Source: a virus (Duplodnaviria; Heunggongvirae; Uroviricota; Caudoviricetes). Taken from it: 64,000 nucleotides of DNA. Numbering within the stretch: the stretch's first letter is position 1; every line of letters starts with the position of its first letter. Shown in pieces: positions 9,995 to 54,335 of the stretch. The translations under genes and the position numbers were made by a program. Location of the stretch: positions 27,446 through 91,445 of the IMG/VR virus record IMGVR_UViG_3300024246_000004; one strand, written 5' to 3'. The notes beneath the pieces are model-generated. The model searched no databases. It had not been told where the DNA came from and saw only the letters and a list, made by a program, of their open reading frames with translations.

Positions 9995-10012
9995 GCATGA
10001 AAGGGGGCGGTT

Positions 10013-31888: not shown

Positions 31889-31956
31889 CTGAGCAGCGCT
31901 CTGCCTCTGAGCTACCCTGAGTCGCCGCACACCTCCGTGGCGCGTCGGCTCCCACC

Positions 31957-39892: not shown

Positions 39893-39900
39893 GATCATCC

Positions 39901-40320
39901 TTACTGCGCGACCTGGGACAGCTGGTACGGCTCGGGGCGCTGTGCGGCGTGCGGGTGCTCCGGGCCGCCGTAGACCTTGAGCTTCTTCAGCACCTGGCGG
40001 CCGAGGGTGTTCTTGGGGAGCATGCCGCGCACGGCCTTCTCGACGGCCTTGCGGGAGTCCTTGTCGATCAGCTCGCCGTACTTGACCGAGCGCAGACCGC
40101 CCGGGTAGCCGGAGTGCCGGTAGGCCAGCTTGTCCTCGCGCTTGTTGCCGGACAGGTAGACCTTGTCGGCGTTGATGATGACCACGAAGTCGCCGGTGTC
40201 CACGTGCGGGGCGAACTGCGGCTTGTGCTTTCCGCGCAGCAGGATGGCAGTCTGGCTGGCCAAGCGGCCGAGCGGGATGTCGGCGGCGTCGATGACGCGC
40301 CAGGTCTGTTCGGCAGACAT
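39901..40320 (-). CDS. rplM: Ribosomal protein uL13 homolog
   Basis: [54 protein letters not shown]... is the canonical L13 pattern; SD GGAAGGAAGATC-ATG; stop abuts the rpsI start, as in the bacterial rplM-rpsI operon. Confidence 0.8.
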
Positions 40321-42822: not shown

Positions 42823-43158
42823 TCACGGAACGCGGGGTTTCCGGTCCCTGCCTACGGGGTTGCGCCGATTCTTGACCACCGATTCGGGGTCGTATCCGAG
42901 AGCCGCGATCTCTCCCAGATAAATCTGCTCGTACTCCTCGTAATGGCGCCGCCGCAGGATACCCAGCGCCCGGTCGCGCGCCTGGCACAGCGCTTGCGTC
43001 CGCGCCATGCGGGCTTGGACGACTGCGGCGCCTGGGCCCTTGCGTTCCTTGAGGCGGCACTCGTAGCAGAGGGTCTGGTCCCCCTGGTACTCGCGCAGCG
43101 GCCGGTCGGCGAAGCACCTGCTGCACGACTGGGTCTGCGGCTCCCCGCGCCCCTGCAT
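42823..43158 (-). CDS. Zn-finger-like hypothetical protein
   Basis: CSRCF...CYEC; start uncertain. Confidence 0.35.
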   Translation of the reverse strand: MQGRGEPQTQSCSRCFADRPLREYQGDQTLCYECRLKERKGPGAAVVQARMARTQALCQARDRALGILRRRHYEEYEQIYLGEIAALGYDPESVVKNRRNPVGRDRKPRVP

Positions 43159-43838
43159 CACGCCGCCCCCCAGTAGTGCCTGCGCACCCGCAGCAGCCAC
43201 GCCTGAGCCGCCAGCGCGTCCGGCTCAGGCGGCAGCGCCGGTGTAGCGCTGTCGAACAGCATGCTGTAGGCCTCGACCATCTTGCGCGCCTTCTCGATGT
43301 CGCCCCCCGCCACGGCATCGCCGAACGCGTGATAGTCCTGCGGGTTCTCCAGCCTGATCGGCAGGCTGCCGGTCGTGTACAGGTGGAGGCCCTGGTGGCA
43401 CAGCCGCATCAGGTGCCGGGCGTGCTTCGCGACCCGGCGCTCCGGGATGTCCGCGTCGAGAGACGTGCCGCCGCGCTGCTCCAGCCGGTGGAACTGCGCT
43501 CTGGCGTACCCGAGGTACCGGTAGCGCACCTGCCCGGCGCTCAGGAACGCCTCCCGAATGTCCACCAGATCGGCGCCCAGCGGGTTGATGATCTCGTACT
43601 CCCCGAGGAACATCAGCTCCAGGACGGTGGGGTTGCACTCCAGGGCGAGCCGCACGTACTTCGCGGCCTCGTGGAACGCGACGTCCGGGTTATGGCCGTC
43701 CAGCGTCTCCTTGGGCCTGCCCAGACCGAGGATCAGCTGGGTGGGGTAGGCGAACACCCCGAGCCGGTCCACATCCGAACCCGGTCCGGCCAGGCCGTAT
43801 GCGGTCGAGCCCACGACCCCCGAGAGCAGGACCTTCAT
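43158..43838 (-). CDS. Pol-beta-superfamily nucleotidyltransferase
   Basis: N-terminal GSTAYGLAGPGSDVDRLGVF fits the hG[GS]...[DE]h[DE] minimal NTase motif; the upstream 120 codons of the track ORF are low-complexity and excluded. Confidence 0.5.
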   Translation of the reverse strand: MKVLLSGVVGSTAYGLAGPGSDVDRLGVFAYPTQLILGLGRPKETLDGHNPDVAFHEAAKYVRLALECNPTVLELMFLGEYEIINPLGADLVDIREAFLSAGQVRYRYLGYARAQFHRLEQRGGTSLDADIPERRVAKHARHLMRLCHQGLHLYTTGSLPIRLENPQDYHAFGDAVAGGDIEKARKMVEAYSMLFDSATPALPPEPDALAAQAWLLRVRRHYWGAA

Positions 43839-43840
43839 GT

Positions 43841-44383
43841 CTAGTTCGTTGGACACCCGGTCACCCCCACCTCGGTCCCGATCACGGGGTAGTCGATGCT
43901 GCGGCCGTCGGACGTGAGGCCGGTGATCAGGTAGTCCAGTTCGTACGTTCCGTTCGTGCAGGTCGGGGCGTTCACGATGTACTGCCACGCGGCGCCCGGA
44001 CCCACGCCCGGCGGGTACTCGACCGTGGAACTGGCGATTTCCGTCAGCTTCTTGCCCTCGATCTTGGCCAGGGTCAGTTCGGTCGTCTGCTGGCCCGGGA
44101 TCTGGGCCGGGGTGTCGCAGTAGATGTCCACGCGCCCTTGGATCTGCGGGTACACGTCCGTGGTGACGGAGATCCCCGAAGGGAACGGAACGGGTTTGTC
44201 GTGGCACTCGTAGTGCGGGTCCGGTCCGGGCGCGGCGTCTGCTTTGGTCACCGGCGCGGGAGCGGCCCCGCCGACGGTGGCGTGCGCACTGGCGCTAGCC
44301 CCGGAGTGGTTGACGAGTTGGCTGGTGCAGCCGGTCAGCGCCAGAGCCAACGCGACCGCCATGATCTTGGTCCTGATCTTCAT
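43841..44383 (-). CDS. Lipoprotein (signal peptide plus lipobox LTGC)
   Basis: SD AAGGAGGACC then ATG; MKIRTKIMAVALALALTGCTS... Confidence 0.6.
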   Translation of the reverse strand: MKIRTKIMAVALALALTGCTSQLVNHSGASASAHATVGGAAPAPVTKADAAPGPDPHYECHDKPVPFPSGISVTTDVYPQIQGRVDIYCDTPAQIPGQQTTELTLAKIEGKKLTEIASSTVEYPPGVGPGAAWQYIVNAPTCTNGTYELDYLITGLTSDGRSIDYPVIGTEVGVTGCPTN

Positions 44384-44391
44384 GGTCCTCC

Positions 44392-44772
44392 TTAGTCCCA
44401 CCAGCGTGGGAAGTGTTCGGCGAAGCGCATCATCGCGTCCTTCGCCTCCTCGCGGACCCGCAACTGGGTCTCCACGTCGCGCTTGAACTTGTCCTGGGCG
44501 TATTCCATGAGCGGCCGGGCGATGCCGATGAAGTATTCCCGGGTGCCCTCCTCGCCCATCTCCTCGAAGTAGCCGGAGCCCTCGTGGGCGAACTTGAGAG
44601 CCGCCCGCGCGACGACCTCGGCGATGTACTGGTCGAAGGCCCACCAGTCGAAGACGGAGAACCCGTCCTCGGCCCGCTGGGTGCGATGTTTCGCCACGTC
44701 GGCCGCAGTCCAGTCTTCGGGCTGCTCGCGGTCGCCGTGGAAGTCGGGCACGCCGTACAGGGTGTCGGTCAC
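44392..44772 (-). CDS. Hypothetical protein
   Basis: SD AAGGAGAACGAGAGGCC then GTG. Confidence 0.45.
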   Translation of the reverse strand: MTDTLYGVPDFHGDREQPEDWTAADVAKHRTQRAEDGFSVFDWWAFDQYIAEVVARAALKFAHEGSGYFEEMGEEGTREYFIGIARPLMEYAQDKFKRDVETQLRVREEAKDAMMRFAEHFPRWWD

Positions 44773-45209
44773 GGCCTCTCGTTCTCCTTGGCCATCTCGC
44801 CCAGCTGCTTCTCCAGGTCCGCGACGTACGCGGCGTCGGCAGCGGCTTTCTTCTTGCGGGCTGCTTCGACCTCGGCCGGAGCTAGCGGCGGATCGTCGGT
44901 GACGAACACGTAGATGCCGTAGCCGACCAGCGCGACCGGCCAGAAGAACCCGTGGAAGATGGCGATCCTCGTCAGGGCGTCGTTGCTGTAAACGCGGCCC
45001 GATTCGACGCCGTCCTTCTCCTCCCACCACAGGACGTTGTAGCGGCACTTCGTGCAGTTGCCGTTGTGGTTGCGCATGGTCTGGCGCTTCGGGCAGGCCG
45101 ACTTCTTGGCTTCGTGGAGTCGGTAGCGGCGGTAGAGCAGCCGGGACGCGTAGGCCCAGAGCACCAGGTCGAGCAGCGGGATTGCGACCCCCAGTACGGC
45201 TGCGACCAT
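44769..45209 (-). CDS. Membrane protein with Cys cluster
   Basis: ORF; hydrophobic segments. Confidence 0.45.
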   Translation of the reverse strand: MVAAVLGVAIPLLDLVLWAYASRLLYRRYRLHEAKKSACPKRQTMRNHNGNCTKCRYNVLWWEEKDGVESGRVYSNDALTRIAIFHGFFWPVALVGYGIYVFVTDDPPLAPAEVEAARKKKAAADAAYVADLEKQLGEMAKENERP

Positions 45210-45424
45210 TATCGCACCCCCTTTTCTTCCAGTTCGCGGATATTGCGCCTGATCGATGAGAGCGTGTTCAAGCTGCTGCGCACGTCGGAGGGTGACGTGG
45301 ATATAGGCCCCACGTAGACCCCCTTGAAGGTTACGCGCAGGTGCTTGCCGCGTTTGTGGTGCGTGATCTCGCAGCCCATCTCTCTGATGGTTGCAACGAG
45401 GTCGCGATCGATGTGACGGGACAT
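45209..45424 (-). CDS. Small basic protein, possibly HicA-like
   Basis: ...GCEITHHKRGKHLRVTFKG... loosely resembles HicA/YcfA mRNA-interferase folds. Confidence 0.3.
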   Translation of the reverse strand: MSRHIDRDLVATIREMGCEITHHKRGKHLRVTFKGVYVGPISTSPSDVRSSLNTLSSIRRNIRELEEKGVR

Positions 45425-45436
45425 GGGCCTGCCCTT

Positions 45437-45478
45437 CTCGGGTGGGGTGTACGGGACTAACGTATCACGTACACCCCA
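45437..45478 (-). terminator. 13-bp-stem hairpin GGTGGGGTGTACG / CGTACACCCCACC enclosing the ACTAACGTATCAC motif in its loop
   Basis: Seen directly; lies between the pnkp stop and the next leftward gene. Confidence 0.5.
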
Positions 45479-45490
45479 CCAGCGCCAGGC

Positions 45491-46390
45491 CTAGAAGGCT
45501 CCGAAAGCCACCTGCGGACAGAAGATGCCCATGCCGCGCCACAGCCTGACCAGTCGGTTGCGGTCGTCCAGCATCGCCTGGAAGTTGTAGCGGTGCCGCA
45601 CGAACTTGTCAAACATCTCCAACTTCACCACGTCGTCAGGTCGGTCGTCGCCCGGCTCGCGTGTGTGGAACTCGCGGTAGAACAGGCCGTTTTTCGCCAA
45701 CCAGCGTTCGCGCTGCTCCTTGAACTCGCCCTTGCCGCCCGACAGGAGCAATACGTCGAAACCCGCGTCGCGGTACAGCCCCAGCAGGTGCGCCACCGGC
45801 ACGTTGACCGCGTCCGTCTCGATCTTGTCGAACTCGAAAGGCCCGCGCGCCACATGTAGCGCCAGCGTCCCGTCGAGGTCGCAGCCGACCGCCTTGGGCA
45901 GCGACTCGTCGGGCACGTACGGCAGCGCCACCGGCCGGTCGTTCATCCACTCGGTGGTCAGCCGCCAGCCGCCCTTGCGAGCGCCTTCCATATCCTTGGC
46001 GAGCTTATGGATCACATCCCTGCCGACGGTGCCGGTCCGACGCATCATGTCGCGTCGGACGCACTCCTCGACCGGCACATCCGTCAAGTCGTGCACCTCG
46101 AAGCGCGCCTCGGGCAGCAGGATGAAGTTGTCCTTGTAGAGCCGGGGCAGCTTGCGGTTCAGGTGCGTATTGTCGAGCACGATGTCGCTTCCCGCGCGGG
46201 CGACCGCCAGCGCGCCCTCCAGCATCGCTGTGACGGCCAGGCGCTCCCGGTCCCTCGACCAGTTTTCGCCGGTGAAACCGAGCATCGCCCTGTACTCGTC
46301 CAGGTTGAAACGCGGCACGCCCAGCGACCGCGCTAGAGTGGTCTTCCCGGACGCCGGGAGCCCTGTCGTCACATGCAGAGTTTGTGCCAT
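45491..46390 (-). CDS. Polynucleotide kinase-phosphatase (Pnkp: P-loop 5-prime kinase plus HAD 3-prime phosphatase)
   Basis: N-terminal Walker A GLPASGKTT; C-terminal HAD motif I DLDGTLA; SD GAAGGAGAGTG-ATG. Confidence 0.75.
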   Translation of the reverse strand: MAQTLHVTTGLPASGKTTLARSLGVPRFNLDEYRAMLGFTGENWSRDRERLAVTAMLEGALAVARAGSDIVLDNTHLNRKLPRLYKDNFILLPEARFEVHDLTDVPVEECVRRDMMRRTGTVGRDVIHKLAKDMEGARKGGWRLTTEWMNDRPVALPYVPDESLPKAVGCDLDGTLALHVARGPFEFDKIETDAVNVPVAHLLGLYRDAGFDVLLLSGGKGEFKEQRERWLAKNGLFYREFHTREPGDDRPDDVVKLEMFDKFVRHRYNFQAMLDDRNRLVRLWRGMGIFCPQVAFGAF

Positions 46391-47517
46391 CACTCTCCTT
46401 CGGTGGACGAGAACGTCGCGGTGCCGCTCGGCTTGACCATCTTCCACGCCATCTCCTCGATACTCTTGCCGTCGTACAGCCGGAACAGCATGGAGCTCAG
46501 GCCGGTCGGAATCGCCTCCTGCGCGAACTCCTTGCGCAGCGCCTTGTTCGTGATCGCCGCGTAGGCCACGTTCGCGGCCAGCACCTTCTCGGCGTGCGCC
46601 TGCCGCAGCCGGTCCGCGACGTCCTGCACCCAGCGCATGAACTCGTCCGGCACGTTGGCGAGCAGGTCGTCCAGCGAACCGCCGTTGGCGAGCACCTCCC
46701 AGATGGTGCGCTCGTTCATGCCGGTCAAGATCGCATGCATGCGGATGTACTCCGTGAGTTTGATCTTCACTCGCCGACCCGAGCGGTATCGCAGGACGTA
46801 GCCCTCCATGTCCGTGCCGGTGCGTACCATGCCGTGGATGTCGGCGCTGCGACCCGCGAGCTCGACCAGGACATCCAGCGGCATCTGCGGCCAGCTGCGC
46901 ACCACGGAGCCGATCGACATCCAGTCCACCATCAGGGCGTCCAGCGGGAGCTCGTCGCCCAGCCTGCCGTACACGCCGAGCAGGACCAGGTCGCGCCTGT
47001 TGCCGTGGTTGACGACGATCCGGTTTTCCGGGTAGACAATCTCGGCGAGGTAGGTGCTGCCCACACACAGGCGACTGGAGACCGGACGCCCGAACTCGTC
47101 GGCCCGGTCGATCCACGCCTGCGCCCACTGGGCCTGCTCGGAGGCGAACGAGCCGCGCGAAGCGGCGCGCCAGCGCTCCTGGCGGCGGTCCCAGAAGACG
47201 ATGCCCAGCGACCCGTCCACCTTGTCGTAGACCGTGAACGGCTCGTCCGGCAGGTCCGGCGCCCACGGGTTGCCGTGGCCGTGCTCCGAATGGTTGAAGA
47301 ACTTCGGGAACGGCCACGCGAGGATCTCGCCAGTCACGTCGTCCGCGATCAGGCCCCGGCAGCGCAGCGTCACCTCGTTCCAGTGGTGGCCGTACTGGCA
47401 GGTCTCCGTGTAGTTGAAGATCGACAGGCCGTCGCCGGAGCGTCCGCGCCGGACGCGGCCCGCGTCGATCTCCTCCTGGAGCCGTCCAGGGCCGAACAGC
47501 TCGTCGAGCGTGGTCAT
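46390..47517 (-). CDS. RNA ligase (Rnl1-like, KxDG nucleotidyltransferase)
   Basis: Motif I YDKVDGSLG; SD GAAGGGGGCAGTC-ATG; stop overlaps the pnkp start (TGATG). Confidence 0.6.
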   Translation of the reverse strand: MTTLDELFGPGRLQEEIDAGRVRRGRSGDGLSIFNYTETCQYGHHWNEVTLRCRGLIADDVTGEILAWPFPKFFNHSEHGHGNPWAPDLPDEPFTVYDKVDGSLGIVFWDRRQERWRAASRGSFASEQAQWAQAWIDRADEFGRPVSSRLCVGSTYLAEIVYPENRIVVNHGNRRDLVLLGVYGRLGDELPLDALMVDWMSIGSVVRSWPQMPLDVLVELAGRSADIHGMVRTGTDMEGYVLRYRSGRRVKIKLTEYIRMHAILTGMNERTIWEVLANGGSLDDLLANVPDEFMRWVQDVADRLRQAHAEKVLAANVAYAAITNKALRKEFAQEAIPTGLSSMLFRLYDGKSIEEMAWKMVKPSGTATFSSTEGE

Positions 47518-47597
47518 GACTGCCCCCTTCATGGATTGCGGCGTGAGGATCATGGGTTTCGAGAGTACTGTGGCCGCAATGGGGACTAACGTATACC

Positions 47598-47632
47598 AGA
47601 AAGGAGCTGGACGCTACACGATATCGTCCAGC
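47598..47632 (-). terminator. 11-bp-stem hairpin GGAGCTGGACG / CGTCCAGCTCC, followed on the coding strand by GGTATACGTTAGTCC
   Basis: Seen directly; a terminator-then-promoter arrangement between the HTH gene and the rnl-pnkp operon. Confidence 0.5.
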
Positions 47633-47814
47633 TCCTCGCCCCGCGCCATGCCCTTCACGAGAAGACCCATGATCATTGAGCGGGCGAAGCGGTACTGGCC
47701 GCCTGGAGTCAAACACGTCGGCTCAAGCTGGCCGCGCTTCACCCACGCGCACACGGTCTTCGTGCTCACGCCGAACAGCTCCGCCACCTCGCCGGAGCGC
47801 ATGAGCTTATCCAC
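47614..47814 (-). CDS. MerR/Xis-family HTH DNA-binding protein
   Basis: GEVAELFGVSTKTVCAWVKRGQL helix-turn-helix. Confidence 0.6.
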   Translation of the reverse strand: MDKLMRSGEVAELFGVSTKTVCAWVKRGQLEPTCLTPGGQYRFARSMIMGLLVKGMARGEELDDIV

Positions 47815-47820
47815 CGTCGC

Positions 47821-48129
47821 CTACTCTCCAGGGTGGATGGCCGCAGCAGCATCCCTCAGCTTGCGCGCCAGACCGCTGCGCACCGCCGTCAGGTCGCTCG
47901 CCAGCTGCTCCTTGACCAGGCGCCCCTGCTCGCGCAGGTCGTCCATGGCGGACGGCGCGGCGTCCTGGGGCTGGATCTCCGCCAACCGCCTCTCCAGCTC
48001 CTCGACCTCGGGGATCAAGGTCTTGAGGGACACGGCGATGGCCCTGAGGGTGCTGGCGGGCGCGGTGCTCGGTCCATCGGCCAGTTCCAGGACGATCTCA
48101 AGCTTCGCGCTTGTCGTAACGAGTCCCAC
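47821..48129 (-). CDS. Hypothetical protein
   Basis: ORF. Confidence 0.45.
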   Translation of the reverse strand: MGLVTTSAKLEIVLELADGPSTAPASTLRAIAVSLKTLIPEVEELERRLAEIQPQDAAPSAMDDLREQGRLVKEQLASDLTAVRSGLARKLRDAAAAIHPGE

Positions 48130-48147
48130 GACAACTCCTTTCGATAG

Positions 48148-48199
48148 GGCCCGGCGGCGGGGCGAGGTAGGTCGTCGAGTCCTCCTTGGCCGCCGGGCC
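48148..48199 (-). terminator. 11-bp GC-rich hairpin GGCCCGGCGGC / GCCGCCGGGCC adjacent to a CTTCTAACGTACTAC motif
   Basis: Seen directly. Confidence 0.45.
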
Positions 48200-48211
48200 G
48201 CTTCTAACGTA

Positions 48212-48523
48212 CTACGAGACGTTCAAGTGGGCCGCTTCCACGGCCGCGTCCGACTTCGCCTGGAGGAGGTCTTCCTCCCAGGCGAATGTCGGTCTGTGCG
48301 CCGTGGAGACGAACCGGAAGTTCTGGCGGCCGACACGGCTGCCCTGCACATCACGGTACAGGTACACCATGACGCCGCCCTCCACCGGCTCGCTGGCCGC
48401 CTTCCATAGCGCGCGGTCGGTTTCCTTGCGCATCCTGTCTTGGCGTGAACCCCGGATGACCAGCATCATGGCGAACACCACGATGCCGATCACCGGGACC
48501 GCCACGATGACGGCGTCGCCCAT
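48212..48523 (-). CDS. Membrane protein
   Basis: N-terminal hydrophobic helix. Confidence 0.45.
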   Translation of the reverse strand: MGDAVIVAVPVIGIVVFAMMLVIRGSRQDRMRKETDRALWKAASEPVEGGVMVYLYRDVQGSRVGRQNFRFVSTAHRPTFAWEEDLLQAKSDAAVEAAHLNVS

Positions 48524-48526
48524 GGC

Positions 48527-49570
48527 TTACTGAGTCGCCAGATTCAGGCCGCTGCCGCTACCGAGAGATAGCAGCCCCTTCGGGAGCGCGCCCAGTTCGT
48601 CGATCGTCTGGCACGCCGGGCAGTTCTTGTAGCCCGCCTCCTTGGCCGCGTTCGCCTCGGCCTGGAGCTGCGCCTGCTTGACCAGGGCCTGCTGCTTCGA
48701 GACCTCCGCGTACGCCGCCTGTGCGTCGTTGACCGCGCCCTGCACGTTGCTCGGCAGCGAGACGCGCACGATCGTGAACCGCACGCCGGTCAGGAACTGG
48801 AACGGCTTGCCGCCGTGCTTGGCGAGGTCCGAAGCGTCCACCGCCGTGTTCAGCTGAGTGTCCAAGTCCTGCTGCAACGTGGCGTTGATCTTGTCCTGCA
48901 CGGCCGCGATGTTGCCGTTGTTGTTCACGCCGCCGGTGACCACGGCCGCCTGCTGCGTCGAGTTCTGCACCAGCGCACACGCGCTGTCCAGCTCGGCGCA
49001 GGACGTCTGCGCCACGAGCTCGCGCAGGTCGTTGTTCAGGATCGGCCGTACCGCCACGTCGATGAACGCGCCCCACCCCTGGTCACCGTCGTAGGCGTGG
49101 AACGCGTTGCCGTTGTCGGTGTAGGTGCGGGTGCCGTACAGATTGTCGAACACGCCGAGGGTCTGGTGGTCGAGGTTCAGGCTGTAGTACAGAGTGCCCT
49201 CGATGCCCATCTCCACGCCGTCGGAGCTCGGCGTCTGCACGACGTCCACGCCCACCTTGTCGCCCTGGTTCGGGTCGGCCGAGATCGTGTACGTACGCTG
49301 CTGCGCCGGGTACGTGTGGATCGTGGAGTAGATGCCCGTGTTGGTCATGCTGCTCTGCGGATCCAGGAAGCCGCGCTCGTTGGAGTTCGAGAACCAGCCT
49401 CCGTTGCGCTCCACGCCGATGTGTCCCGCGTCCATGCTCTGGAACGCACCGATCCACGGGAACAGGAAGATCATCCCGACGGTGACGCCGACGACGCCCA
49501 GCAGGCCGCAGCCGACGAGCTTCGCCGAAACCTCCGGCACGCCGGACGTGTTGCGCGAGTAACCGCTCAT
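48527..49570 (-). CDS. Membrane-anchored protein, possibly SPFH/band-7-like, with C-terminal coiled coil
   Basis: N-terminal TM helix, beta-rich middle, Ala/Gln-rich C-terminus; SD GGAGGGGTGT-ATG. Confidence 0.4.
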   Translation of the reverse strand: MSGYSRNTSGVPEVSAKLVGCGLLGVVGVTVGMIFLFPWIGAFQSMDAGHIGVERNGGWFSNSNERGFLDPQSSMTNTGIYSTIHTYPAQQRTYTISADPNQGDKVGVDVVQTPSSDGVEMGIEGTLYYSLNLDHQTLGVFDNLYGTRTYTDNGNAFHAYDGDQGWGAFIDVAVRPILNNDLRELVAQTSCAELDSACALVQNSTQQAAVVTGGVNNNGNIAAVQDKINATLQQDLDTQLNTAVDASDLAKHGGKPFQFLTGVRFTIVRVSLPSNVQGAVNDAQAAYAEVSKQQALVKQAQLQAEANAAKEAGYKNCPACQTIDELGALPKGLLSLGSGSGLNLATQ

Positions 49571-49598
49571 ACACCCCTCCATTCATTCGATGCTTCTC

Positions 49599-50498
49599 TT
49601 ATCCCCCGGGCGCGTTCACCGTGACTTTCGCGCTGAATAAGGCCCGGAAGTTCAATCGCGGCGGCTGGATGATGGGTTCCGGTTCACCTTTGGCCGCGAA
49701 GCCTGTGTGCCAGCCGTGGAACTCGCTGGGGCGCGGCTCCTGCACGGCTGGGGCCTCCTCGAACGAGGGCAGCGGCGGAATGTGCCTCGCCAGCCACGCA
49801 TCCGGAGCGGCGGTCATCGAGGGAGCGTCCTGCATGAGCCACCGGACATCGACGCTGCCGAGTTCCTGGCGTACACAGACCCGGCCGTAGCGGAACGCCT
49901 TCGGCTCGTCGATCCAGTAGACGCCCTTCTCCTGCTCCAGTTTGTCCTCCAGTTCGACCCCGCCGAGGCCCTGGATCTCGCCGTGGGGGAAGTGTGCCCG
50001 TGCCAACATGATCTTGGAGTTGCGCTCCGTGTCGCGCTGCCGCCACGCGAAGTAGTTTGCGACTTCGACGGCGTTCGGAAGCGGGAAGACCCGTGCGTCG
50101 AACATGCCGGGGCGGCGCAGGATGACGCCGGGTTCGCGCGAGTAGCCGAGGAACGCCAGGGTGGCGATGGCGGAGCTGATGGACGCGATCTTCTGGACGC
50201 GTCCGCCGAACCACGGCTGGGTGCGGTAGTCCTCGTACCCACATACCAGGACACTGACTTCGTCGGACTGCTGGTAGGCGAATACCGCGCCGCCGATCTC
50301 GGCGCACAGCGCCTGGGCGACGTATCCCATGTACCGGGCCACGACCGTGTCGAACGGCTTGTCGGCACCGCGCAGCAGGGTGTGGAACGCCCGGCCGTCC
50401 ACGCGGATGATCGCAGGCAGGTAGCGGGGCAGGATGCTGCCGGTTGCGGCCTCGTAGGCCTTCATCCGGTCACCGAGACCAGTTCCGTCGCTCGCCAT
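49599..50498 (-). CDS. Thg1-like protein (tRNA-His guanylyltransferase family; 3-prime-5-prime polymerase for tRNA 5-prime end repair)
   Basis: MKAYEAATGSILPRYLPAIIRVDGRAFHTLLRG...FAYQQSDEVSVLV matches the Thg1/TLP N-terminal catalytic core; SD GAATGGAGGCGCT-ATG. Confidence 0.65.
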   Translation of the reverse strand: MASDGTGLGDRMKAYEAATGSILPRYLPAIIRVDGRAFHTLLRGADKPFDTVVARYMGYVAQALCAEIGGAVFAYQQSDEVSVLVCGYEDYRTQPWFGGRVQKIASISSAIATLAFLGYSREPGVILRRPGMFDARVFPLPNAVEVANYFAWRQRDTERNSKIMLARAHFPHGEIQGLGGVELEDKLEQEKGVYWIDEPKAFRYGRVCVRQELGSVDVRWLMQDAPSMTAAPDAWLARHIPPLPSFEEAPAVQEPRPSEFHGWHTGFAAKGEPEPIIQPPRLNFRALFSAKVTVNAPGG

Positions 50499-50569
50499 AG
50501 CGCCTCCATTCGTGAGCCGGGGACCGACGGCGGTCCGATCATGGGAATCGCAGTTCCTTGGGCCGTCGG

Positions 50570-50725
50570 TGTGCATAACGTATCACGTTCACTTCAGTTC
50601 TCGCAACCGCCCCCGGACGCACAGTGCACTGGGCTTCGGGTCGTCGATGGTCCGGGAGCGGCCGGTCGCGGAGGAGGGCTGGGTCTCGCTTGACCTCTGG
50701 TGACCGGCATAACGTATCACGCCTG
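50570..50725 (+). promoter_or_regulatory. Two direct copies of GGCATAACGTATCACG (50575 and 50708) in the divergent region between the Thg1-like gene and a rightward 4-gene unit
   Basis: Seen directly; 133 bp apart. Confidence 0.5.
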
Positions 50726-50834
50726 TACGCCCAAAGGAATGAACCTCCTACTATCCACACACGAAAGAGCGTATGTTGGTCGCGTAACGACGACAGGAGG
50801 CACGGTGGAGCGGGAAGAACCCGAACAGGAAGAC

Positions 50835-50972
50835 ATGATCACTCCGGCGATGCAGACCGCCATCTCGACCCACGAGATGTTCACGGCGCTGCGCCAGGCC
50901 GGGTTCTCGCGCAGCGAGGCGCTCACCATCGTCATCGGCATGCTCTCCGCGAACAGCGGATCAGGCGATTGA
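50835..50972 (+). CDS. Small hypothetical protein (45 aa)
   Basis: SD GAACAGGAAGAC-ATG. Confidence 0.4.
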   Translation: MITPAMQTAISTHEMFTALRQAGFSRSEALTIVIGMLSANSGSGD

Positions 50973-50973
50973 C

Positions 50974-51210
50974 ATGTGGCCCAACGACCTCGCCGAGGCG
51001 CAGAACCCGATCACCCGCAGCCTGGTGCGCTTCCATCCGTCAGTGCACATCGAGAACGCCGCGCAGTTCGACTACTTCTACGCCGCCTTCAAGGAATACT
51101 GCGAGGTCGCCTACCGCCTCGCGCACCTCGATCCCGGTCATATCGACGCACCTTACGGCTGGGTGCTGCCTCGTGAACCCCACATGCTTCCGGAGGAAAC
51201 CCGTGGATGA
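50974..51210 (+). CDS. Hypothetical protein
   Basis: ATG overlaps the upstream stop. Confidence 0.45.
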   Translation: MWPNDLAEAQNPITRSLVRFHPSVHIENAAQFDYFYAAFKEYCEVAYRLAHLDPGHIDAPYGWVLPREPHMLPEETRG

Positions 51211-51391
51211 GCCGATCTCCGCTTTCGGACGCCCCTATCACGCCGACGACACCCGCGTGCTGTTCTGCGGTGCCGCCGGTCCCTGGTGCGGCTGGCTGCG
51301 CACGAGCAACAACGAAGCGCAGCACACGCGGTTCGTCGCCGAGCGCGAGGAGCACCAGGACGGCTGCAAGAGCGGCCTGGTACGCCTGTGA
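51203..51391 (+). CDS. Cys-containing small protein
   Basis: SD GGAGGAAACCC then GTG. Confidence 0.45.
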   Translation: MDEPISAFGRPYHADDTRVLFCGAAGPWCGWLRTSNNEAQHTRFVAEREEHQDGCKSGLVRL

Positions 51392-51855
51392 CGACTTGGA
51401 GCAATCTGGCGCGGGTCGTCGAGGCCCGCGCTACACTCCCCAGTCCGGCCGAGCGCAGGCGGTTGCGCATCGACGCGGGCATCACGGTCAAGTCGCTGGC
51501 CCAGGTCCTCGGCATTTCCGTGAGCGCCATGAACTCGCTGGAGCGCGCGGAGAACCCCGGCGAGAAGTACCTGGTGGACTATGTTAACGCGCTCAATACG
51601 ATGCGCCGCCCCGCGCCGGAACCCGCACTCACCACGCAAGAGGCCGCTGAACTGCGCGAGCAGTGGGAGAAGTCCCCCTGCGGGGCCTGCGGAGGCCTAC
51701 ACGTCACGGCCCTGAAAACTCCCGGGGCGTGCCCGCGCATCAAGCGGATCGCCTACGACGCCCAGGGCCGTATGCTCGAAGTCGAATACTGGCCGGACGG
51801 CAAATGGCCGAAAGACGGCATCATCTGGCCGGACGGGATCATGGCGGAAGAGTAG
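51388..51855 (+). CDS. XRE-family HTH transcriptional regulator
   Basis: LRIDAGITVKSLAQVLGISVSAMNSLERAEN HTH; GTG coupled to the upstream stop. Confidence 0.6.
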   Translation: MTTWSNLARVVEARATLPSPAERRRLRIDAGITVKSLAQVLGISVSAMNSLERAENPGEKYLVDYVNALNTMRRPAPEPALTTQEAAELREQWEKSPCGACGGLHVTALKTPGACPRIKRIAYDAQGRMLEVEYWPDGKWPKDGIIWPDGIMAEE

Positions 51856-51861
51856 CCCCGG

Positions 51862-51911
51862 CGCCGCGAGCGCCCTGGTTATCGTTTTTGTCTCGGGCGC
51901 CGGGACGACTA
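51862..51911 (+). terminator. Hairpin CCCGGCGCC...GGCGCCGGG with an internal CGTTTTTGTC
   Basis: Seen directly, after the XRE gene. Confidence 0.4.
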
Positions 51912-51977
51912 AAGTAGCAGGGTCACGTGACATTGACGAGTTCTGGCGCTACGATAACCACGATGGGAGCACTGGCG

Positions 51978-52166
51978 ATGGAAATCCCCCTGCGCCGCAA
52001 GTACAAGTCCGCGAGCGCCAAGAACACGCGTTCGACCAGTAGCACCTCCGGCTCCTCGAAGCAGAAGCGCAAGGGTCAGAGCGTGAAGAACGCGCCGACC
52101 CGTATCCGCGTGCTCGTCTTGGTGGATGGACGCCGCCGCTCCTGGACTTGGCGGGACGTAAACTGA
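51978..52166 (+). CDS. Small basic Lys/Ser/Arg-rich protein (62 aa)
   Basis: SD GGGAGCACTGGCG-ATG. Confidence 0.45.
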   Translation: MEIPLRRKYKSASAKNTRSTSSTSGSSKQKRKGQSVKNAPTRIRVLVLVDGRRRSWTWRDVN

Positions 52167-52168
52167 GC

Positions 52169-52212
52169 GAACCGGCCGCCGCGCTGACCCCCGGCGGCCG
52201 GTTCTATTCTGC
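52169..52212. terminator. Strong bidirectional rho-independent terminator (12-bp stem GAACCGGCCGCC / GGCGGCCGGTTC followed by TATTCT)
   Basis: Seen directly, between convergent genes. Confidence 0.7.
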
Positions 52213-52262
52213 GGCGGATCTTGATATGGGCTACGCGCCTGTTATGGCCGCCAGGCCGCTGC

Positions 52263-53390
52263 TCACTCGTACTCCGTGCCGCCCTTGCGCTCCAGGTAGG
52301 CGTCACTCACGAACTTCAGGATGGCCCGGCCGCCGAGGATGCCCGAACGCCGCTCCGCCATCGAACGGACCACGACCCCCTCGCGCAGGGTGTCCGGGTC
52401 GAGCATGCTCTGCTTGACCTCGGCGAACGCGGCGAGCAGCCCGTAGTCGTACGGCCCCTGATACACCAAGGGTGCGCGGGGAACGCCGGTGCGGTTGGCG
52501 AACGCCCCCAGGTATCCCTCGGAAAGCCAGAACGGCTCGCCCTCCACCGGCACGAGGTACGCGTCGAACAGGGCGTAACCGAGCGTCTCGTTCCGGCTGG
52601 CGTCCGCGCCGTAATGCAAGTCCTGCACGCCTTTGCCGTACACCTCCCCGAACAAGCCGACCGCGCGCACGCCGTAGAACTCTTTGGCCGCCAGCGCGGC
52701 CTCGCGCAGCCGGTACTGGCGCGCGGCGCGCCAGTAGAGGTTGGTCTCCGACTCCTTGAGCGCCAGGCTCTTGCCGCCGAAACCCTTCGAGGAGACGTAC
52801 TCGCGGCCATCCTCGGCCAGCGTGTACAGGCAGCACGTACCGTGGATCTTCTCCGTGGCGACCACCATCTCGCCGGGCGTGAAGACCTCCGGGTAGCGCT
52901 TGACGTTCTCGATCTCGATCCAGCGGATCAAATCCGGTGCCGACTCCACTTCACCAGCCATGCCGACGGGGATTGGCGGAATCCACTTGGTGATGCCGAG
53001 GGCTTCAGCGAAGTCGCTCTCGGGCGTCCAGGGCCCCTCCGATTCCGGCATGGCGTTGGCGGCCCACTCCCACACCTCCCGCATCGCACCCCACTCGAAG
53101 GGGACGCCTTTCGGGCGGCAGACGATGCCCTGGGATAGCTCGCCGCGCAGTCGCACCGCCTTGACGCGGTTCTTCGCCGGGCCCGCGAGCCTGCCGGTCA
53201 GGCCGAGCTCCTCGATGAGCGCATCCGGCAGAACCGCCTGCTCCGGGATGTACAACGCAAGCTCGCCGTCCTTATAGACGCCCTTCGGTACGACGGCGCG
53301 GAACAGGCCCACCTGGGCGAGTTCCAGCAGATCGGCGTTGGGGTGCGGGAAGATCCGCAGCTTCTCGACTTTGACCTCGAACCCTGACAT
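52263..53390 (-). CDS. Rnl2-family RNA ligase with an N-terminal extension
   Basis: Motif I ATEKIHGTCC (KIHGT, as in T4 Rnl2-type ligases); the N-terminal 160 aa are an additional domain. Confidence 0.5.
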   Translation of the reverse strand: MSGFEVKVEKLRIFPHPNADLLELAQVGLFRAVVPKGVYKDGELALYIPEQAVLPDALIEELGLTGRLAGPAKNRVKAVRLRGELSQGIVCRPKGVPFEWGAMREVWEWAANAMPESEGPWTPESDFAEALGITKWIPPIPVGMAGEVESAPDLIRWIEIENVKRYPEVFTPGEMVVATEKIHGTCCLYTLAEDGREYVSSKGFGGKSLALKESETNLYWRAARQYRLREAALAAKEFYGVRAVGLFGEVYGKGVQDLHYGADASRNETLGYALFDAYLVPVEGEPFWLSEGYLGAFANRTGVPRAPLVYQGPYDYGLLAAFAEVKQSMLDPDTLREGVVVRSMAERRSGILGGRAILKFVSDAYLERKGGTEYE

Positions 53391-53400
53391 AAACCCCTAC

Positions 53401-54231
53401 TTACTCGTCGGTGAACGGCAGGTCCACCACCGTCCACGAGCCTTCCTTCGTGTAGCCCGCCCACTGCGCGCCGCTCGGATCGCAGTCCAGGCCGAACACC
53501 CAAGCGTGCCCACCGTCATAGGTGGGAATGCGGTCGGTGTACGGGAAGTGCAGGTGCCCGTGATACAGGCGCTTGGCCTGGAGTTCCGCCAGCGCGTGCT
53601 GGATGCGGCGCTGATTCGGCAGGCAATCGGCCAGGGCCTTGCGGTTCCACGGCGGGTTGGACCCGAACGGTTTGTCGTGACTGAAGATCACGTCCACCGG
53701 CGACGAGTCGGCGTCCATGATCGCCATGAACTGCTCGTCGGTCATCTCCTCCTCGGGGAACCACAGGGTGCCTGAGAAGTCTTTCGGGACGCCCGCCCAC
53801 TGAGCGGCGCGCTTCTCCGACTTCAGCGTGTTGACGTACTCCTCGGTGACGCGCCAGTCCTTGTCCACCGAATACGCCCCGCCGAGGGCGATGAACCGGG
53901 TGTCGGCCCACGTCCACCGGTGCCCGCGCGGCGCATAGCGGACATGCTTGCGGCAGACGAGGAAGCCCTCGTCGTCGCGGTTGTCCCCGTACTTCTCCAG
54001 CACCAGCGATGTCTTGTCGTGGTTGCCGTCGAGAAAGTACAGGATGACGCCGCTGTGCGCGGCGTGCCGCTCCACGTCGTCGAAGAACTTCACGCCGTCG
54101 GCGGTGTGTTCCCAGGCCCCGAAGTCGCCGAGCTGGAAGATCCGGTCGGCGCCAGCTTTCTTGGCCCGGCCCAGCAGGGTGATCACGTGTGTGCAATTGC
54201 CATGAACATCGCCAGCTATCAACAACTTCAC
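53401..54231 (-). CDS. Calcineurin-like metallophosphoesterase
   Basis: GDVHGN, GNHD and GHLH metal-binding motifs; SD GAAAGGGTTGCT then GTG. Confidence 0.7.
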   Translation of the reverse strand: MKLLIAGDVHGNCTHVITLLGRAKKAGADRIFQLGDFGAWEHTADGVKFFDDVERHAAHSGVILYFLDGNHDKTSLVLEKYGDNRDDEGFLVCRKHVRYAPRGHRWTWADTRFIALGGAYSVDKDWRVTEEYVNTLKSEKRAAQWAGVPKDFSGTLWFPEEEMTDEQFMAIMDADSSPVDVIFSHDKPFGSNPPWNRKALADCLPNQRRIQHALAELQAKRLYHGHLHFPYTDRIPTYDGGHAWVFGLDCDPSGAQWAGYTKEGSWTVVDLPFTDE

Positions 54232-54335
54232 AGCAACCCTTTCGTGTCGATGCCCAATGACGTTTTCTGCGTGTGCCTTGCACGGATTGTGGTCATCGAG
54301 CCGGACTAACGTATCACACGAGAAGCGGGGTGTCC

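What the first reader, a model, noticed from the sequence alone, without database searches (positions are those of the whole stretch)
43158..54231. Leftward RNA repair island: Pnkp, two RNA ligases of different families, Thg1-like 3-prime-5-prime polymerase, NTase and metallophosphoesterase
Within about 11 kb the window encodes: a bifunctional polynucleotide kinase-phosphatase (Walker A plus DxDGT); a KxDG RNA ligase that is translationally coupled to it; a Thg1-like protein (the enzyme family that rebuilds tRNA 5-prime ends by 3-prime-5-prime addition); a KIHGT Rnl2-family ligase with an extra N-terminal domain; a calcineurin-type phosphoesterase; and a pol-beta nucleotidyltransferase. Pnkp plus Rnl is the classic phage answer to host anticodon nucleases (the T4 Pnk/Rnl1 versus PrrC paradigm). 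A Thg1-like enzyme and a second ligase family suggest a broader capacity to heal both anticodon-loop and acceptor-end lesions. Together with the 35-tRNA array this looks like a layered counter-defence aimed at tRNA-targeting host immunity.
Basis: partly seen in the sequence, partly recalled or inferred. Interest (0 to 1): 0.85.

Follow-up and report, generated by a model that had tools for sequence, protein, structure and literature searches.

The report
Phage tRNA and RNA repair island
A roughly 91-kb uncultivated phage of soil actinobacteria carries a cluster of six enzymes that mend broken RNA ends; the toolkit is unusually complete, but it is of a kind already described in T4 and in giant phages.

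Summary
Profile searches place all six ORFs in RNA-end-processing families:
- a T4-type Pnkp (kinase plus HAD phosphatase);
- an Rnl1-type ligase whose stop overlaps the Pnkp start (TGATG);
- a bacterial-type Thg1-like protein (TLP) with its carboxylate triad intact;
- an RlaP nucleotidyltransferase;
- a metallophosphoesterase (MPE);
- a second ligase.

One label is wrong. The second ligase is Rnl5/DraRnl-type, with an N-terminal OB domain, not Rnl2.

The "island" is really two or three leftward transcription units. A 1.4-kb rightward cassette with an XRE regulator and a bidirectional terminator split them. An SPFH protein and orphan genes are embedded in them.

Three related phages keep the backbone Rnl5 | cassette | MerR-Rnl1-Pnkp | RlaP. 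MPE, TLP and a cargo slot between Pnkp and RlaP vary among them.

The MPE fold is phosphodiesterase-like (nearest Dbr1/CWF19L1), so its role in repair rests on association only. The Pnkp phosphatase carries a clade-specific Arg-to-Gly change at the T4 Arg213 position.

The same toolkit logic is already published for T4 and jumbo phages: tRNAs, Rnl1, PNK-HAD, RlaP and Thg1. This is therefore a new member of a known kind. The counter-defence purpose is plausible but inferred.

The parts
53401..54231 (-). Metallophosphoesterase (MPE), 276 aa from the GTG at 54231. Motifs GDVHG, GDFG, GNHD, SHD and GHLH are present.
52263..53390 (-). Rnl5 (DraRnl/NgrRnl)-type ATP-dependent RNA ligase with an N-terminal OB domain. 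Motif I is KIHGT.
   Evidence: PF21189 plus PF09414. TIGR02306 scores 302.7 bits against a cutoff of 151; the Rnl2 model scores 19 against 197. NgrRnl 5cot at 3e-12, with KIHGT aligned to KLDGS. 63-70% identical in L002, L166 and L168.
52168..52203 (.). GC-rich hairpin between convergent genes: the rightward 62-aa gene and the leftward Rnl5. Candidate bidirectional terminator.
   Evidence: The fold gives -31.7 kcal/mol, z = -2.85, and 0 of 200 shuffles fold as well. Sequence.
50739..52166 (+). Rightward cassette that interrupts the island. It holds three small orphan ORFs, an XRE-type HTH protein (about 51391/51463-51855) and a very basic 62-aa protein (51978-52166).
   Evidence: Frame plot. 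HTH_3 and HTH_31 hits. Conserved in L002, L166 and L168 at 59-85% identity.
50573..50720 (-). Two exact copies of the motif CGTGATACGTTATGC (50573-50587 and 50707-50721) in the divergent gap upstream of the TLP. Candidate promoter or operator.
   Evidence: The motif family has 14 sites against 0.19 expected. L168 also has two copies upstream of its TLP.
49599..50498 (-). Thg1-like protein (TLP), 299 aa, of the bacterial template-dependent type, with a roughly 60-aa low-complexity C-terminal tail.
   Evidence: PF04446 at 6e-23. PHROG 4717 at 3e-64. BtTLP 4kgk at 4e-48. RVDGRAFH and QSDE align to the catalytic Asp and Asp-Glu of BtTLP and human THG1. There is no HINNLYN motif.
47821..49582 (-). 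SPFH/Band-7 membrane protein (48527-49582), a 103-aa transmembrane protein (48212-48523) and a 102-aa orphan (47821-48129), embedded between the TLP and the ligase.
   Evidence: PF01145 at 2e-11. The small proteins have no family. Conserved in L002 and L168. In L166 only a C-terminal SPFH remnant is left.
47614..47814 (-). 66-aa MerR/HTH_17 DNA-binding protein directly upstream of the Rnl1 gene.
   Evidence: PF12728 at 4e-9 and MerR at 3e-7. Found in the same position in L002, L166 and L168.
46390..47553 (-). Rnl1-type RNA ligase (motif I KVDGS) with a homolog of the T4 Rnl1 C-terminal domain.
   Evidence: PF09511 at 1e-14. PHROG 562 at 6e-64, covering residues 37-376. The alignment to T4 Rnl1 2c5u keeps the equivalents of R54, K75/F77, K99, E159, E227/G228 and K240/K242.
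45491..46390 (-). T4-type polynucleotide kinase-phosphatase (Pnkp). It has the P-loop GLPASGKT, the kinase Asp and Arg, DLDGT, and Gly219 at the T4 Arg213 position. Its start overlaps the ligase stop.
   Evidence: In 120 homologs the Arg213 column is R in 114 and G in 6. The six are this protein and its five closest relatives. All other catalytic columns are invariant.
43841..45424 (-). Cargo slot between Pnkp and RlaP. It holds four orphan genes of 71, 146 (membrane), 126 and 180 aa (lipoprotein signal), preceded by the promoter-like motif at 45455-45468.
   Evidence: No significant family matches. The slot is empty in L002, holds two genes in L168, and holds infC-rpmI-rplT in L166.
43158..43856 (-). 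RlaP-family Pol-beta nucleotidyltransferase (GS...DVD motif).
   Evidence: PF10127 at 3e-22. PHROG 388 at 3e-31. 62-81% identical in the relatives. RlaP lies immediately downstream of a TLP in four other phage lineages.

Best explanation
This is an RNA, chiefly tRNA, repair and maintenance gene set of an uncultivated phage of about 91 kb. The host is probably a Catenulisporales actinobacterium.

The inferred working order is as follows.
1. A host ribonuclease cuts a tRNA and leaves a 2',3'-cyclic phosphate (or 3'-phosphate) end and a 5'-OH end.
2. The T4-type Pnkp phosphorylates the 5' end and dephosphorylates the 3' end.
3. The Rnl1-type ligase is translated from the same message and carries a T4-like C-terminal tRNA-specificity domain. 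It reseals breaks in loops.
4. RlaP can add back one or two nucleotides to a 3'-OH when the nuclease has also excised a base.
5. The TLP refills 5'-truncated acceptor stems by templated 3'-5' addition.
6. The Rnl5 ligase seals nicks inside base-paired RNA.
7. The MPE may open cyclic or unusual phosphodiester ends, but this step is the least certain.

The genes sit in at least two leftward transcription units that share one promoter-like motif, so they are probably expressed together.

Shown here: family membership, catalytic residues, gene order, and conservation and variation among relatives. Inferred: the substrates, the order of the steps, and the counter-defence purpose.
For: - Family and motif evidence for each enzyme.
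- Stop/start overlap of the ligase and Pnkp.
- Three related phages keep the backbone Rnl5 | cassette | MerR-Rnl1-Pnkp | RlaP at 60-86% amino-acid identity: L002, L166 and L168.
- Of 63 viral TLP loci, about 22 carry RlaP, Rnl5, Rnl1, Pnkp or this MPE within 10 kb, always on the TLP strand. RlaP lies immediately after the TLP in four lineages, and Rnl5 plus MPE occur beside the TLP in L042 and L061.
- The cultured Omegavirus phage Pound has a TLP two genes away from Pnkp.
- The motif GTGATACGTTAGTC occurs at 14 sites against 0.19 expected. It lies upstream of and co-oriented with MPE, TLP (two copies), Rnl1, the gene after Pnkp, p70 and the L13 gene. The relatives keep it at the equivalent places.
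- The same phage carries 36 tRNAs, an RF-1/ArfB-like peptidyl-tRNA hydrolase domain protein, and ribosomal proteins L13 and S9.
- Published biochemistry supports the assigned activities. RlaP adds 1-2 NMP to RNA 3'-OH ends and restores tRNA function after excision damage (PMC12776372). BtTLP repairs 5'-truncated tRNAs (PMC3061083). Jumbo-phage genomics describes the same toolkit (PMC7824862).
Against: - No host nuclease, RNA substrate or expression data are available.
- The Pnkp phosphatase lacks the arginine equivalent to T4 Arg213, so 3'-end healing may be weakened or altered.
- MPE and TLP are each missing from at least one close relative, so they are dispensable.
- In cultured actinophages the MPE family is not linked to ligases.
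- An SPFH membrane protein and many orphan genes are interleaved, so part of the clustering may reflect an accessory-gene hot spot.
- Three copies of the motif elsewhere in the window are antisense to the local genes, so calling it a promoter is tentative.
Confidence: 0.7

Rival explanations
1. The enzymes mainly mature the phage's own tRNAs rather than repair damaged ones. All 36 phage tRNA genes stop at N73-C74, and several abut with no spacer. RlaP, which adds one or two nucleotides, or the host CCA enzyme would finish the 3' ends. The TLP would add or restore G-1 on the phage tRNA-His, which unusually has A73.
For: - Every tRNA ends N73-C74 without CA, both here and in the related phage.
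- tRNA-His has A73 and a single G between tRNA-Trp C74 and His +1. The relative conserves this arrangement despite compensatory changes in the acceptor stem.
- No CCA-adding enzyme was seen in the roughly 74 kb examined.
- BtTLP can add G-1 opposite A73 weakly, and it complements yeast thg1 deletion (PMC3061083).
Against: - The TLP is of the templated type, lacks HINNLYN, and its nearest characterised relative prefers C73 by about 50-fold.
- G-1 is already encoded in the genome.
- The TLP lies 40 kb from the tRNA array and next to ligases and kinases, which maturation does not need.
- A close relative has deleted the TLP.
- CCA-less tRNA genes are, from general knowledge, usual in actinobacteria, whose own CCA enzyme completes them.
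Confidence: 0.12
2. The clustering is largely incidental. This stretch next to the portal gene is an accessory-gene hot spot where unrelated cargo accumulates under a common phage promoter. The enzymes would then act independently rather than as one pathway.
For: - Content varies among four related phages. MPE is present or absent, TLP and SPFH are deleted in one, and the slot between Pnkp and RlaP holds none, two or four orphan genes, or the host infC-rpmI-rplT operon.
- Orphan and membrane proteins are interleaved.
- Many genes have their own copy of the motif.
Against: - Rnl1 and Pnkp are overlapped and always adjacent.
- The same enzyme combinations recur next to each other in unrelated phage lineages.
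- Even the swapped cargo is translation-related.
Confidence: 0.1
3. Some members serve other anti-defence or structural roles. The MPE could be a phosphodiesterase for nucleotide second messengers or 2'-5' linked nucleic acids. The Rnl1 homolog could be a tail-fibre attachment factor like T4 gp63. Rnl5 could seal RNA-DNA hybrid nicks in replication.
For: - The MPE fold is nearest to Dbr1/CWF19L1 and other phosphodiesterases such as Rv0805, not to protein or RNA 3'-phosphatases of the PPP type.
- PHROG 562 carries the T4 dual annotation "RNA ligase and tail fiber protein attachment catalyst".
- The MPE family stands alone in many actinophages.
Against: - The ligase active-site residues are all intact.
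- Rnl5 and MPE recur beside TLP and RlaP in other phages.
Confidence: 0.08

Closest known systems
Bacteriophage T4 tRNA repair (Pnkp plus Rnl1 against PrrC; also Rnl2 and the RlaP homolog NrdC.11)
   Same: - The bifunctional kinase/HAD-phosphatase has the same architecture, matching T4 Pnkp over its full length at 2e-28.
- The Rnl1-type ligase has conserved catalytic residues and a T4-like C-terminal domain.
- An RlaP-family nucleotidyltransferase is present in the same genome (PMC12776372).
   Different: - The second ligase is Rnl5, not Rnl2.
- A TLP and an MPE are added.
- Rnl1 and Pnkp are adjacent and overlapped here.
- The Pnkp has Gly at the Arg213 position.
- The host is a high-GC actinobacterium.
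- Amino-acid identity to the T4 proteins is low.
RNA repair toolkits of jumbo phages (Iyer, Anantharaman, Krishnan, Burroughs and Aravind 2021, PMC7824862)
   Same: The same set of parts and the same rationale are described there: many tRNAs, Rnl1/Rnl2-family ATP-grasp ligases, PNK-HAD, RlaP, sporadic Thg1, and peptidyl-tRNA hydrolases.
   Different: - This genome is about 91 kb, not jumbo.
- The parts are physically clustered within 11 kb.
- A CCA-adding enzyme, RtcB, 2H and KptA were not seen.
- An ArfB/RF-1-type domain stands in for PTH2.
- Ribosomal proteins L13 and S9 sit nearby.
Omegavirus (cluster J) mycobacteriophages, for example Pound and Omega
   Same: These are cultured actinophages with a TLP (annotated as tRNA nucleotidyltransferase, 42% identical) two genes upstream of a T4-type polynucleotide kinase.
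   Different: - No RNA ligase, RlaP or MPE lies within the 18 kb inspected.
- No large tRNA array lies in that stretch.
- They are temperate phages with a different genome plan.
Deinococcus radiodurans DraRnl and Naegleria NgrRnl (Rnl5 clade)
   Same: They share the N-terminal OB module plus adenylyltransferase domain. The TIGR02306 equivalog model is passed at twice its cutoff.
   Different: The protein is phage-encoded, has about 35 extra residues between the domains, and its substrate has not been tested.
Bacillus thuringiensis TLP (BtTLP, PDB 4kgk)
   Same: It is the best solved relative at 4e-48. The catalytic carboxylates are the same, and the eukaryotic tRNA-His recognition motif is absent. 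Its known activity is templated repair of 5'-truncated tRNAs (PMC3061083).
   Different: The protein is phage-encoded and has a roughly 60-residue proline-rich C-terminal tail. It is co-located with ligases, a kinase and RlaP.
Bacterial Pnkp1-Rnl-Hen1 repair complex (Capnocytophaga gingivalis, PDB 4xrp)
   Same: Pnkp1 is the best solved match to the phage Pnkp, at 6e-34 over the full length.
   Different: No Hen1 methyltransferase is present, and the partner ligase is Rnl1-type.

Membership tests
T4-type polynucleotide kinase-phosphatase (Pnkp) | N-terminal P-loop kinase with GxxxxGK[ST] plus the catalytic Asp and Arg (T4 K15, S16, D35, R38, R126) | tested here: met
   GLPASGKTT, LDEYR and the arginines at 113 and 117 align with the T4 and Cg Pnkp1 residues. 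K16, D31, R34, R113 and R117 are invariant in 120 homologs.
T4-type polynucleotide kinase-phosphatase (Pnkp) | C-terminal DxDxT acylphosphatase domain with Asp165, Asp167, Ser211, Lys258 and Asp278 (named in PMC3592404), plus Arg176, Arg213 and Asp254 (recalled from Wang and Shuman 2002; paper not held) | tested here: inconclusive
   D171, D173, T175, R182, S217, D252, K256, D275 and D276 are all present and invariant. The Arg213 position is Gly219. This change is shared by the six closest homologs only; the other 114 of 120 have Arg. PF25109 is passed at 128 bits against a cutoff of 27.6.
Rnl1 (T4 RNA ligase 1) family | Nucleotidyltransferase motifs I (KxDGS), III, IV (EGYV) and V (KxK), plus Rnl1-specific N-terminal residues (R54, K75, F77) | tested here: met
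   KVDGS, AEIVYP, MEGYVL, RVKIKL, LRCRGL and PFPKFFN align with the T4 residues. PF09511 scores 55 bits against a cutoff of 28.3.
Rnl1 (T4 RNA ligase 1) family | All-helical C-terminal domain that gives tRNA specificity in T4 Rnl1 | tested here: inconclusive
   The PHROG 562 match covers residues 37-376 of 387, and the TIGR02308 match covers 43-346. The NCBIfam equivalog cutoff is not reached (63 bits against 242), and no structure was modelled.
Rnl2 (T4 RNA ligase 2 / editing ligase) family | Match to the Rnl2 equivalog profile, with a C-terminal rather than N-terminal accessory domain | tested here: not met
   TIGR02307 scores 19.4 bits against a cutoff of 197. The accessory domain is an N-terminal OB fold, PF21189.
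Rnl5 (DraRnl/NgrRnl) family | N-terminal OB module fused to a minimal adenylyltransferase domain, and a match to the DRB0094 equivalog profile | tested here: met
   TIGR02306 scores 302.7 bits against a cutoff of 151, covering model positions 6-341 of 341. PF21189 plus PF09414. NgrRnl at 3e-12, with motif I aligned.
Thg1/TLP 3'-5' polymerase family | Palm domain with three catalytic carboxylates (human D29, D76, E77) | tested here: met
   RVDGRAFH and QQSDEVS align to those residues in 3otb and 4kgk. PF04446 scores 81.7 bits against a cutoff of 29.2.
Eukaryotic-type Thg1 (non-templated G-1 addition to A73 tRNA-His) | HINNLYN motif and closest similarity to eukaryotic Thg1 | tested here: not met
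   The motif region reads WRQRDTERNSKIML, like BtTLP's WRQQDASKNSISMV. BtTLP scores 4e-48 against 5e-10 for human THG1.
RlaP (PF10127) nucleotidyltransferases | Pol-beta fold motif G[SG]...DxD and a match to PF10127 above its gathering score | tested here: met
   79.9 bits against a cutoff of 23. GSTAYGLAGPGSDVD is present. PHROG 388 at 3e-31. PDB sequence search (phmmer, E up to 1) found no match.
Calcineurin-like metallophosphoesterase superfamily | Five motifs: DxH, GD, GNH[DE], H, GHxH | tested here: met
   All five are present and invariant in 66 homologs. The Pfam scores for this protein are below the gathering cutoff (25.6 against 27), but its homologs carry PF00149. The model has the MPE fold.
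Lambda-phosphatase/CthPnkp-type RNA end-healing phosphoesterase | Closest structural or sequence similarity to the PPP/lambda-phosphatase clade | tested here: not met
Phage RNA repair system (healing plus sealing) | Demonstrated repair of nuclease-cleaved tRNA and protection from a host anticodon nuclease | not testable with these tools
   This needs biochemistry and infection assays. The host is known only by inference: the phage L13 is 89-91% identical to Actinocrinis and Actinospica L13.

The most novel reading that the evidence does not exclude
The island would be a maturation kit for the phage's own tRNAs, not only a repair kit. The phage tRNA-His has a eukaryote-like A73, with one G squeezed between tRNA-Trp and tRNA-His. 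All 36 tRNAs end at C74. The TLP would then supply or restore G-1 after RNase P cleavage, and RlaP would complete the 3' ends. That would make the phage tRNA pool independent of, or resistant to, host enzymes that attack acceptor ends.

In the wider view, the region would be a "translation-maintenance" hot spot. It captures host translation operons under the same promoter-like motif as the repair enzymes: uL13-uS9 here, and IF3-bL35-bL20 in a sister phage.
Probability: 0.12. Interest if true: 0.7.

Novelty: new member of a known kind. Interest (0 to 1): 0.4.

Why it matters
Phage RNA repair is understood mechanistically almost only from T4. Phage-encoded TLPs, Rnl5 ligases and RlaP enzymes have no demonstrated role in infection.

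This phage clade offers a compact natural experiment. Four related genomes share the Rnl1-Pnkp-RlaP-Rnl5 backbone. They differ in TLP and MPE, and in whether host translation operons are inserted.

That makes the contribution of each part testable once a host, probably Catenulisporales, is found. It also points to acceptor-end damage as a likely target of actinobacterial defences. It does not reveal a new principle.

Tried and rejected
1. A megablast search of the 11 kb against 50,697 phage records found nothing. The phage is known only from metagenomes.
2. I looked for ncRNAs in the island, such as Y-RNA-like or tRNA-like partners. Rfam finds only the tRNA array.
3. I tested whether the MPE compensates for the Arg213-to-Gly change in Pnkp. 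This is rejected as a rule: L166 has the Gly form but no MPE within its 20 kb, whereas L168 has both.
4. I tested whether TLP and SPFH form a functional pair. L166 shows a single deletion that removed the TLP and the N-terminal two-thirds of SPFH. SPFH lies next to a TLP only in this clade. The pairing is therefore probably just neighbourhood.
5. I tried to link TLP presence to the tRNA-His discriminator across phages.
   - No tRNA-His lies within 10 kb of any of the 63 viral TLP loci.
   - Pattern scans for the tRNA-His found only the one known relative.
   - The tRNA array of the TLP-less relative could not be reached.
6. The small minus-strand ORF at 51923-52072 is rejected in favour of the plus-strand 62-aa ORF, which is 85% conserved and ends at the hairpin.
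7. The Burroughs and Aravind 2016 paper and the T4 Pnkp mutagenesis papers are not in the library. Statements about Arg213 rest on memory.

Full report
**Source and context.** The window is the first 64 kb, reversed, of a 91.4-kb metagenomic contig (ENA ERZ27256701 k141_554652). It was also assembled from SRR7687014. G+C content is 65.8%.

It is a phage. It has a portal, a terminase and large structural genes. No known phage is close: megablast finds nothing, and the portal is at most 30% identical to any deposited phage.

The phage-encoded ribosomal protein L13 is 89-91% identical to L13 of Actinocrinis and Actinospica, and 83% identical to that of Catenulispora. This points to a Catenulisporales host.

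**Checking the observation.** Codon-position G+C profiles show continuous minus-strand coding across 43.1-50.5 kb and 52.2-54.2 kb. Profile searches confirm each reported enzyme.

- **RlaP, 43158-43856.** It matches PF10127 at 3e-22.
- **Pnkp, 45491-46390.** It matches PF25109 plus a P-loop kinase domain. It aligns end to end with C. gingivalis Pnkp1 (6e-34) and T4 Pnkp (2e-28).
- **Rnl1-type ligase, 46390-47553.** It matches PF09511 and PHROG 562 (6e-64). It aligns with T4 Rnl1 and keeps the equivalents of R54, K75/F77, K99, E159, E227/G228 and K240/K242.
- **TLP, 49599-50498.** It matches PF04446 and the B. thuringiensis TLP at 4e-48. The catalytic Asp and Asp-Glu are aligned, and the eukaryotic HINNLYN motif is absent.
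- **Second ligase, 52263-53390.** It has an N-terminal PF21189 OB domain plus PF09414.
- **MPE, 53401-54231.** It has all five metallophosphoesterase motifs.

The ligase stop and the Pnkp start overlap as TGATG behind a GGAG. Translational coupling is therefore plausible.

**Corrections.** The KIHGT ligase is not Rnl2. It passes the DRB0094/Rnl5 equivalog model at 302.7 bits against a cutoff of 151, and it fails the Rnl2 model at 19 bits against 197. Its best solved relative is Naegleria Rnl5.

The island is not one leftward operon. A rightward cassette at 50739-52166 holds three orphans, an XRE-type HTH protein and a basic 62-aa protein. It ends at a strong hairpin at 52168-52203 that faces the end of the Rnl5 gene.

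An SPFH membrane protein, a MerR-like protein and about ten orphan genes are interleaved.

**Regulatory motif.** The motif GTGATACGTTAGTC occurs 14 times with at most 2 mismatches, against 0.19 expected.

Between 40 and 55 kb all eight copies are on the minus strand, 20-90 nt upstream of leftward genes. These genes are MPE, TLP (two exact copies), Rnl1, the gene after Pnkp, p70, the gene left of 41411, and the L13 gene.

The related phages have the motif at the equivalent places. It looks like an extended -10 promoter (TGn-TACGTT).

Three weaker copies at 12.7-20.6 kb are antisense to the local genes, so this assignment is tentative.

**Relatives.** Four genomes of this clade can be compared.

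| Genome | Identity to window proteins | MPE | TLP and SPFH | Slot between Pnkp and RlaP |
|---|---|---|---|---|
| Window phage | - | present | present | four orphan genes |
| L168 (SRR28522418_160995) | 70-86% for the enzymes | present | present | two genes |
| L002/L073 (IMG/VR 3300044706_000074, 119 kb) | 50-72% | absent | present | empty |
| L166 (JGI 3300086416, 121 kb) | 65-84% | absent | TLP gone, only a C-terminal SPFH remnant left | host-type infC-rpmI-rplT operon (IF3, L35, L20), preceded by the same motif |

The backbone is therefore Rnl5 | cassette | MerR-Rnl1-Pnkp | RlaP. MPE, TLP and the Pnkp-RlaP slot are accessory.

**Wider association.** I examined 63 viral contigs that encode a TLP, using iterated profile searches and a Pfam check.

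- RlaP lies directly downstream of the TLP in four lineages: L005/6, L016, L043 and L061.
- Rnl5 lies within 10 kb in ten loci.
- An MPE with the same signature motifs lies beside TLP and Rnl5 in L028-30, L042 and L061.
- These genes are always on the TLP strand.

The cultured Omegavirus phage Pound has a TLP two genes away from Pnkp. In contrast, MPE homologs in LeBron and BillNye are not near any ligase.

The gradient is shallow. I conclude only that this enzyme is phosphodiesterase-like and not a PPP-type phosphatase. Its link to RNA repair rests on recurrent neighbourhood alone.

**The Pnkp variant.** The residue aligned with T4 Arg213 is Gly219 (S217-G218-G219). From memory of Wang and Shuman 2002, Arg213 is essential for the 3'-phosphatase activity.

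Among 120 homologs this column is Arg in 114 and Gly in 6. The six are this protein and its five closest relatives. Every other catalytic column is invariant.

This is an inherited, clade-level change and not an assembly error. Its effect is unknown.

**Mechanism.** The best-supported reading is a heal-and-seal system with two add-back enzymes.

1. Pnkp heals the broken ends.
2. Rnl1 seals loop breaks.
3. RlaP restores an excised 3' nucleotide. This activity is shown for Pseudomonas RlaP in PMC12776372.
4. The TLP refills 5'-truncated acceptor stems. This activity is shown for BtTLP in PMC3061083.
5. Rnl5 seals nicks in duplex RNA.

The rest of the genome fits a translation-protection theme. 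It carries 36 tRNAs, an RF-1/ArfB-like domain protein that in the relative sits inside the tRNA array, and L13 plus S9. A Tad2-like gene just outside the window shows investment in counter-defence. Substrates, the order of steps and the purpose are all inferred.

**Rival reading that remains open.** All phage tRNA genes end at N73-C74 with no CA. tRNA-His has A73, with a single G as the only spacer after tRNA-Trp. The relative conserves this arrangement through compensatory stem changes.

A role for the TLP and RlaP in maturing these tRNAs is therefore possible. Four points argue against it:

- the TLP is of the templated type, and its characterised relative prefers C73 by about 50-fold;
- G-1 is already encoded;
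- the TLP lies 40 kb from the tRNA array;
- a sister phage has lost the TLP.

**Comparison and novelty.** The same toolkit and rationale are already published for T4 and for jumbo phages (PMC7824862). Omega-like mycobacteriophages already pair a TLP with Pnkp. This is a new, unusually complete and compact member of a known kind.

Its value lies in the natural variation among sister phages, and in the side observations (uL13-uS9, IF3-bL35-bL20, the A73 tRNA-His and the Gly219 Pnkp). It does not show a new mechanism.

Noticed in passing
window 1093-9996 (+): All 36 plus-strand tRNA genes end at the discriminator plus a single C (three have CC), and none has CCA. Several abut with no spacer (1823/1824, 2283/2284, 2357/2358, 9699/9700), and Gly-tcc and Pro-tgg share base 7230. 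The related phage (L073) shows the same pattern in most of its tRNAs (three there carry a full CCA).
   Followed up: partly
window 4419-4492 (+); L073 13085-13158: tRNA-His has A73 instead of the usual bacterial C73. A single G at -1 is the only base between tRNA-Trp C74 and His +1. The relative conserves this with compensatory acceptor-stem changes. For contrast, tRNA-His of Streptomyces phage WRightOn has C73, CCA, and T at -1.
   Followed up: partly
window 39443-40320 (-): The phage encodes full-length ribosomal proteins uL13 (TIGR01066 186.7 bits, cutoff 93) and uS9 (NF001099 173 bits, cutoff 112) in host operon order, preceded by the promoter-like motif. L13 is 89-91% identical to Actinocrinis and Actinospica L13, so the capture is recent. 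The genes are absent at the syntenic spot in relative L002. uS9 is named among the 14 virus-encoded ribosomal proteins of PMC6375957; the terms uL13/L13 do not occur in that paper's text.
   Followed up: partly
L166 10954-12095 (JGI 3300086416 Ga0683620_0000008): A sister phage carries IF3 (infC), bL35 (rpmI) and bL20 (rplT) between Pnkp and RlaP. This is the slot where the window has four orphan genes. Its portal gene also carries intein-like Hint/LAGLIDADG hits.
   Followed up: no
window 31069-31464 (-); L073 18554-18910: A 131-aa RF-1 domain protein (release-factor/ArfB-like peptidyl-tRNA hydrolase domain; PF00472 at 4e-17). In the relative it is embedded inside the tRNA array.
   Followed up: partly
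window 965, 4091, 6370, 12713, 15529, 20630 (+); 40342, 41411, 42813, 45455, 47584, 50573, 50707, 54304 (-): The 14-nt motif GTGATACGTTAGTC occurs at 14 sites against 0.19 expected, in short intergenic gaps. All copies point toward the middle of the window. They are co-oriented with the genes at 40-55 kb and in the tRNA array, but antisense to the genes at 12-21 kb. The motif is conserved in three relatives.
   Followed up: partly
window 45491-46390 (-), codon for residue 219: The Pnkp phosphatase domain has Gly where T4 has Arg213. The change is shared only with its five closest homologs out of 120. All other catalytic residues are invariant.
   Followed up: yes
window 53401-54231 (-): The public gene call (261 aa, start at 54186) removes the invariant GDxH metal-binding motif. 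The GTG at 54231 gives the complete enzyme.
   Followed up: yes
window 21554-21655 (-) and 31849-31921 (-): Two extra ARAGORN tRNA calls on the minus strand (a 102-nt Gly-tcc and an Ile-gat) do not reach the Rfam gathering score and may be false.
   Followed up: no
window 54330-57695 (+): The portal ORF is very long, at about 1120 aa. Only the first 600 aa or so resemble portals. The C-terminal part has a faint ParB_N hit and may be a fused MuF-like or other head-internal domain.
   Followed up: no
L068 4110-4394 (contig region just left of window position 1): A Tad2-like (anti-Thoeris) gene and a 1104-aa orphan lie upstream of the tRNA array, outside the window.
   Followed up: no
Proteins P0014-P0120, P0137-P0237: T4-type Pnkp homologs at 47-52% identity are common in Streptomyces and Embleya genomes (found on contigs up to 8.7 Mb), and homologs of this MPE at about 50-55% identity are common in Nocardia genomes (contigs up to 9 Mb). 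I did not check whether these are prophage genes or cellular genes.
   Followed up: no
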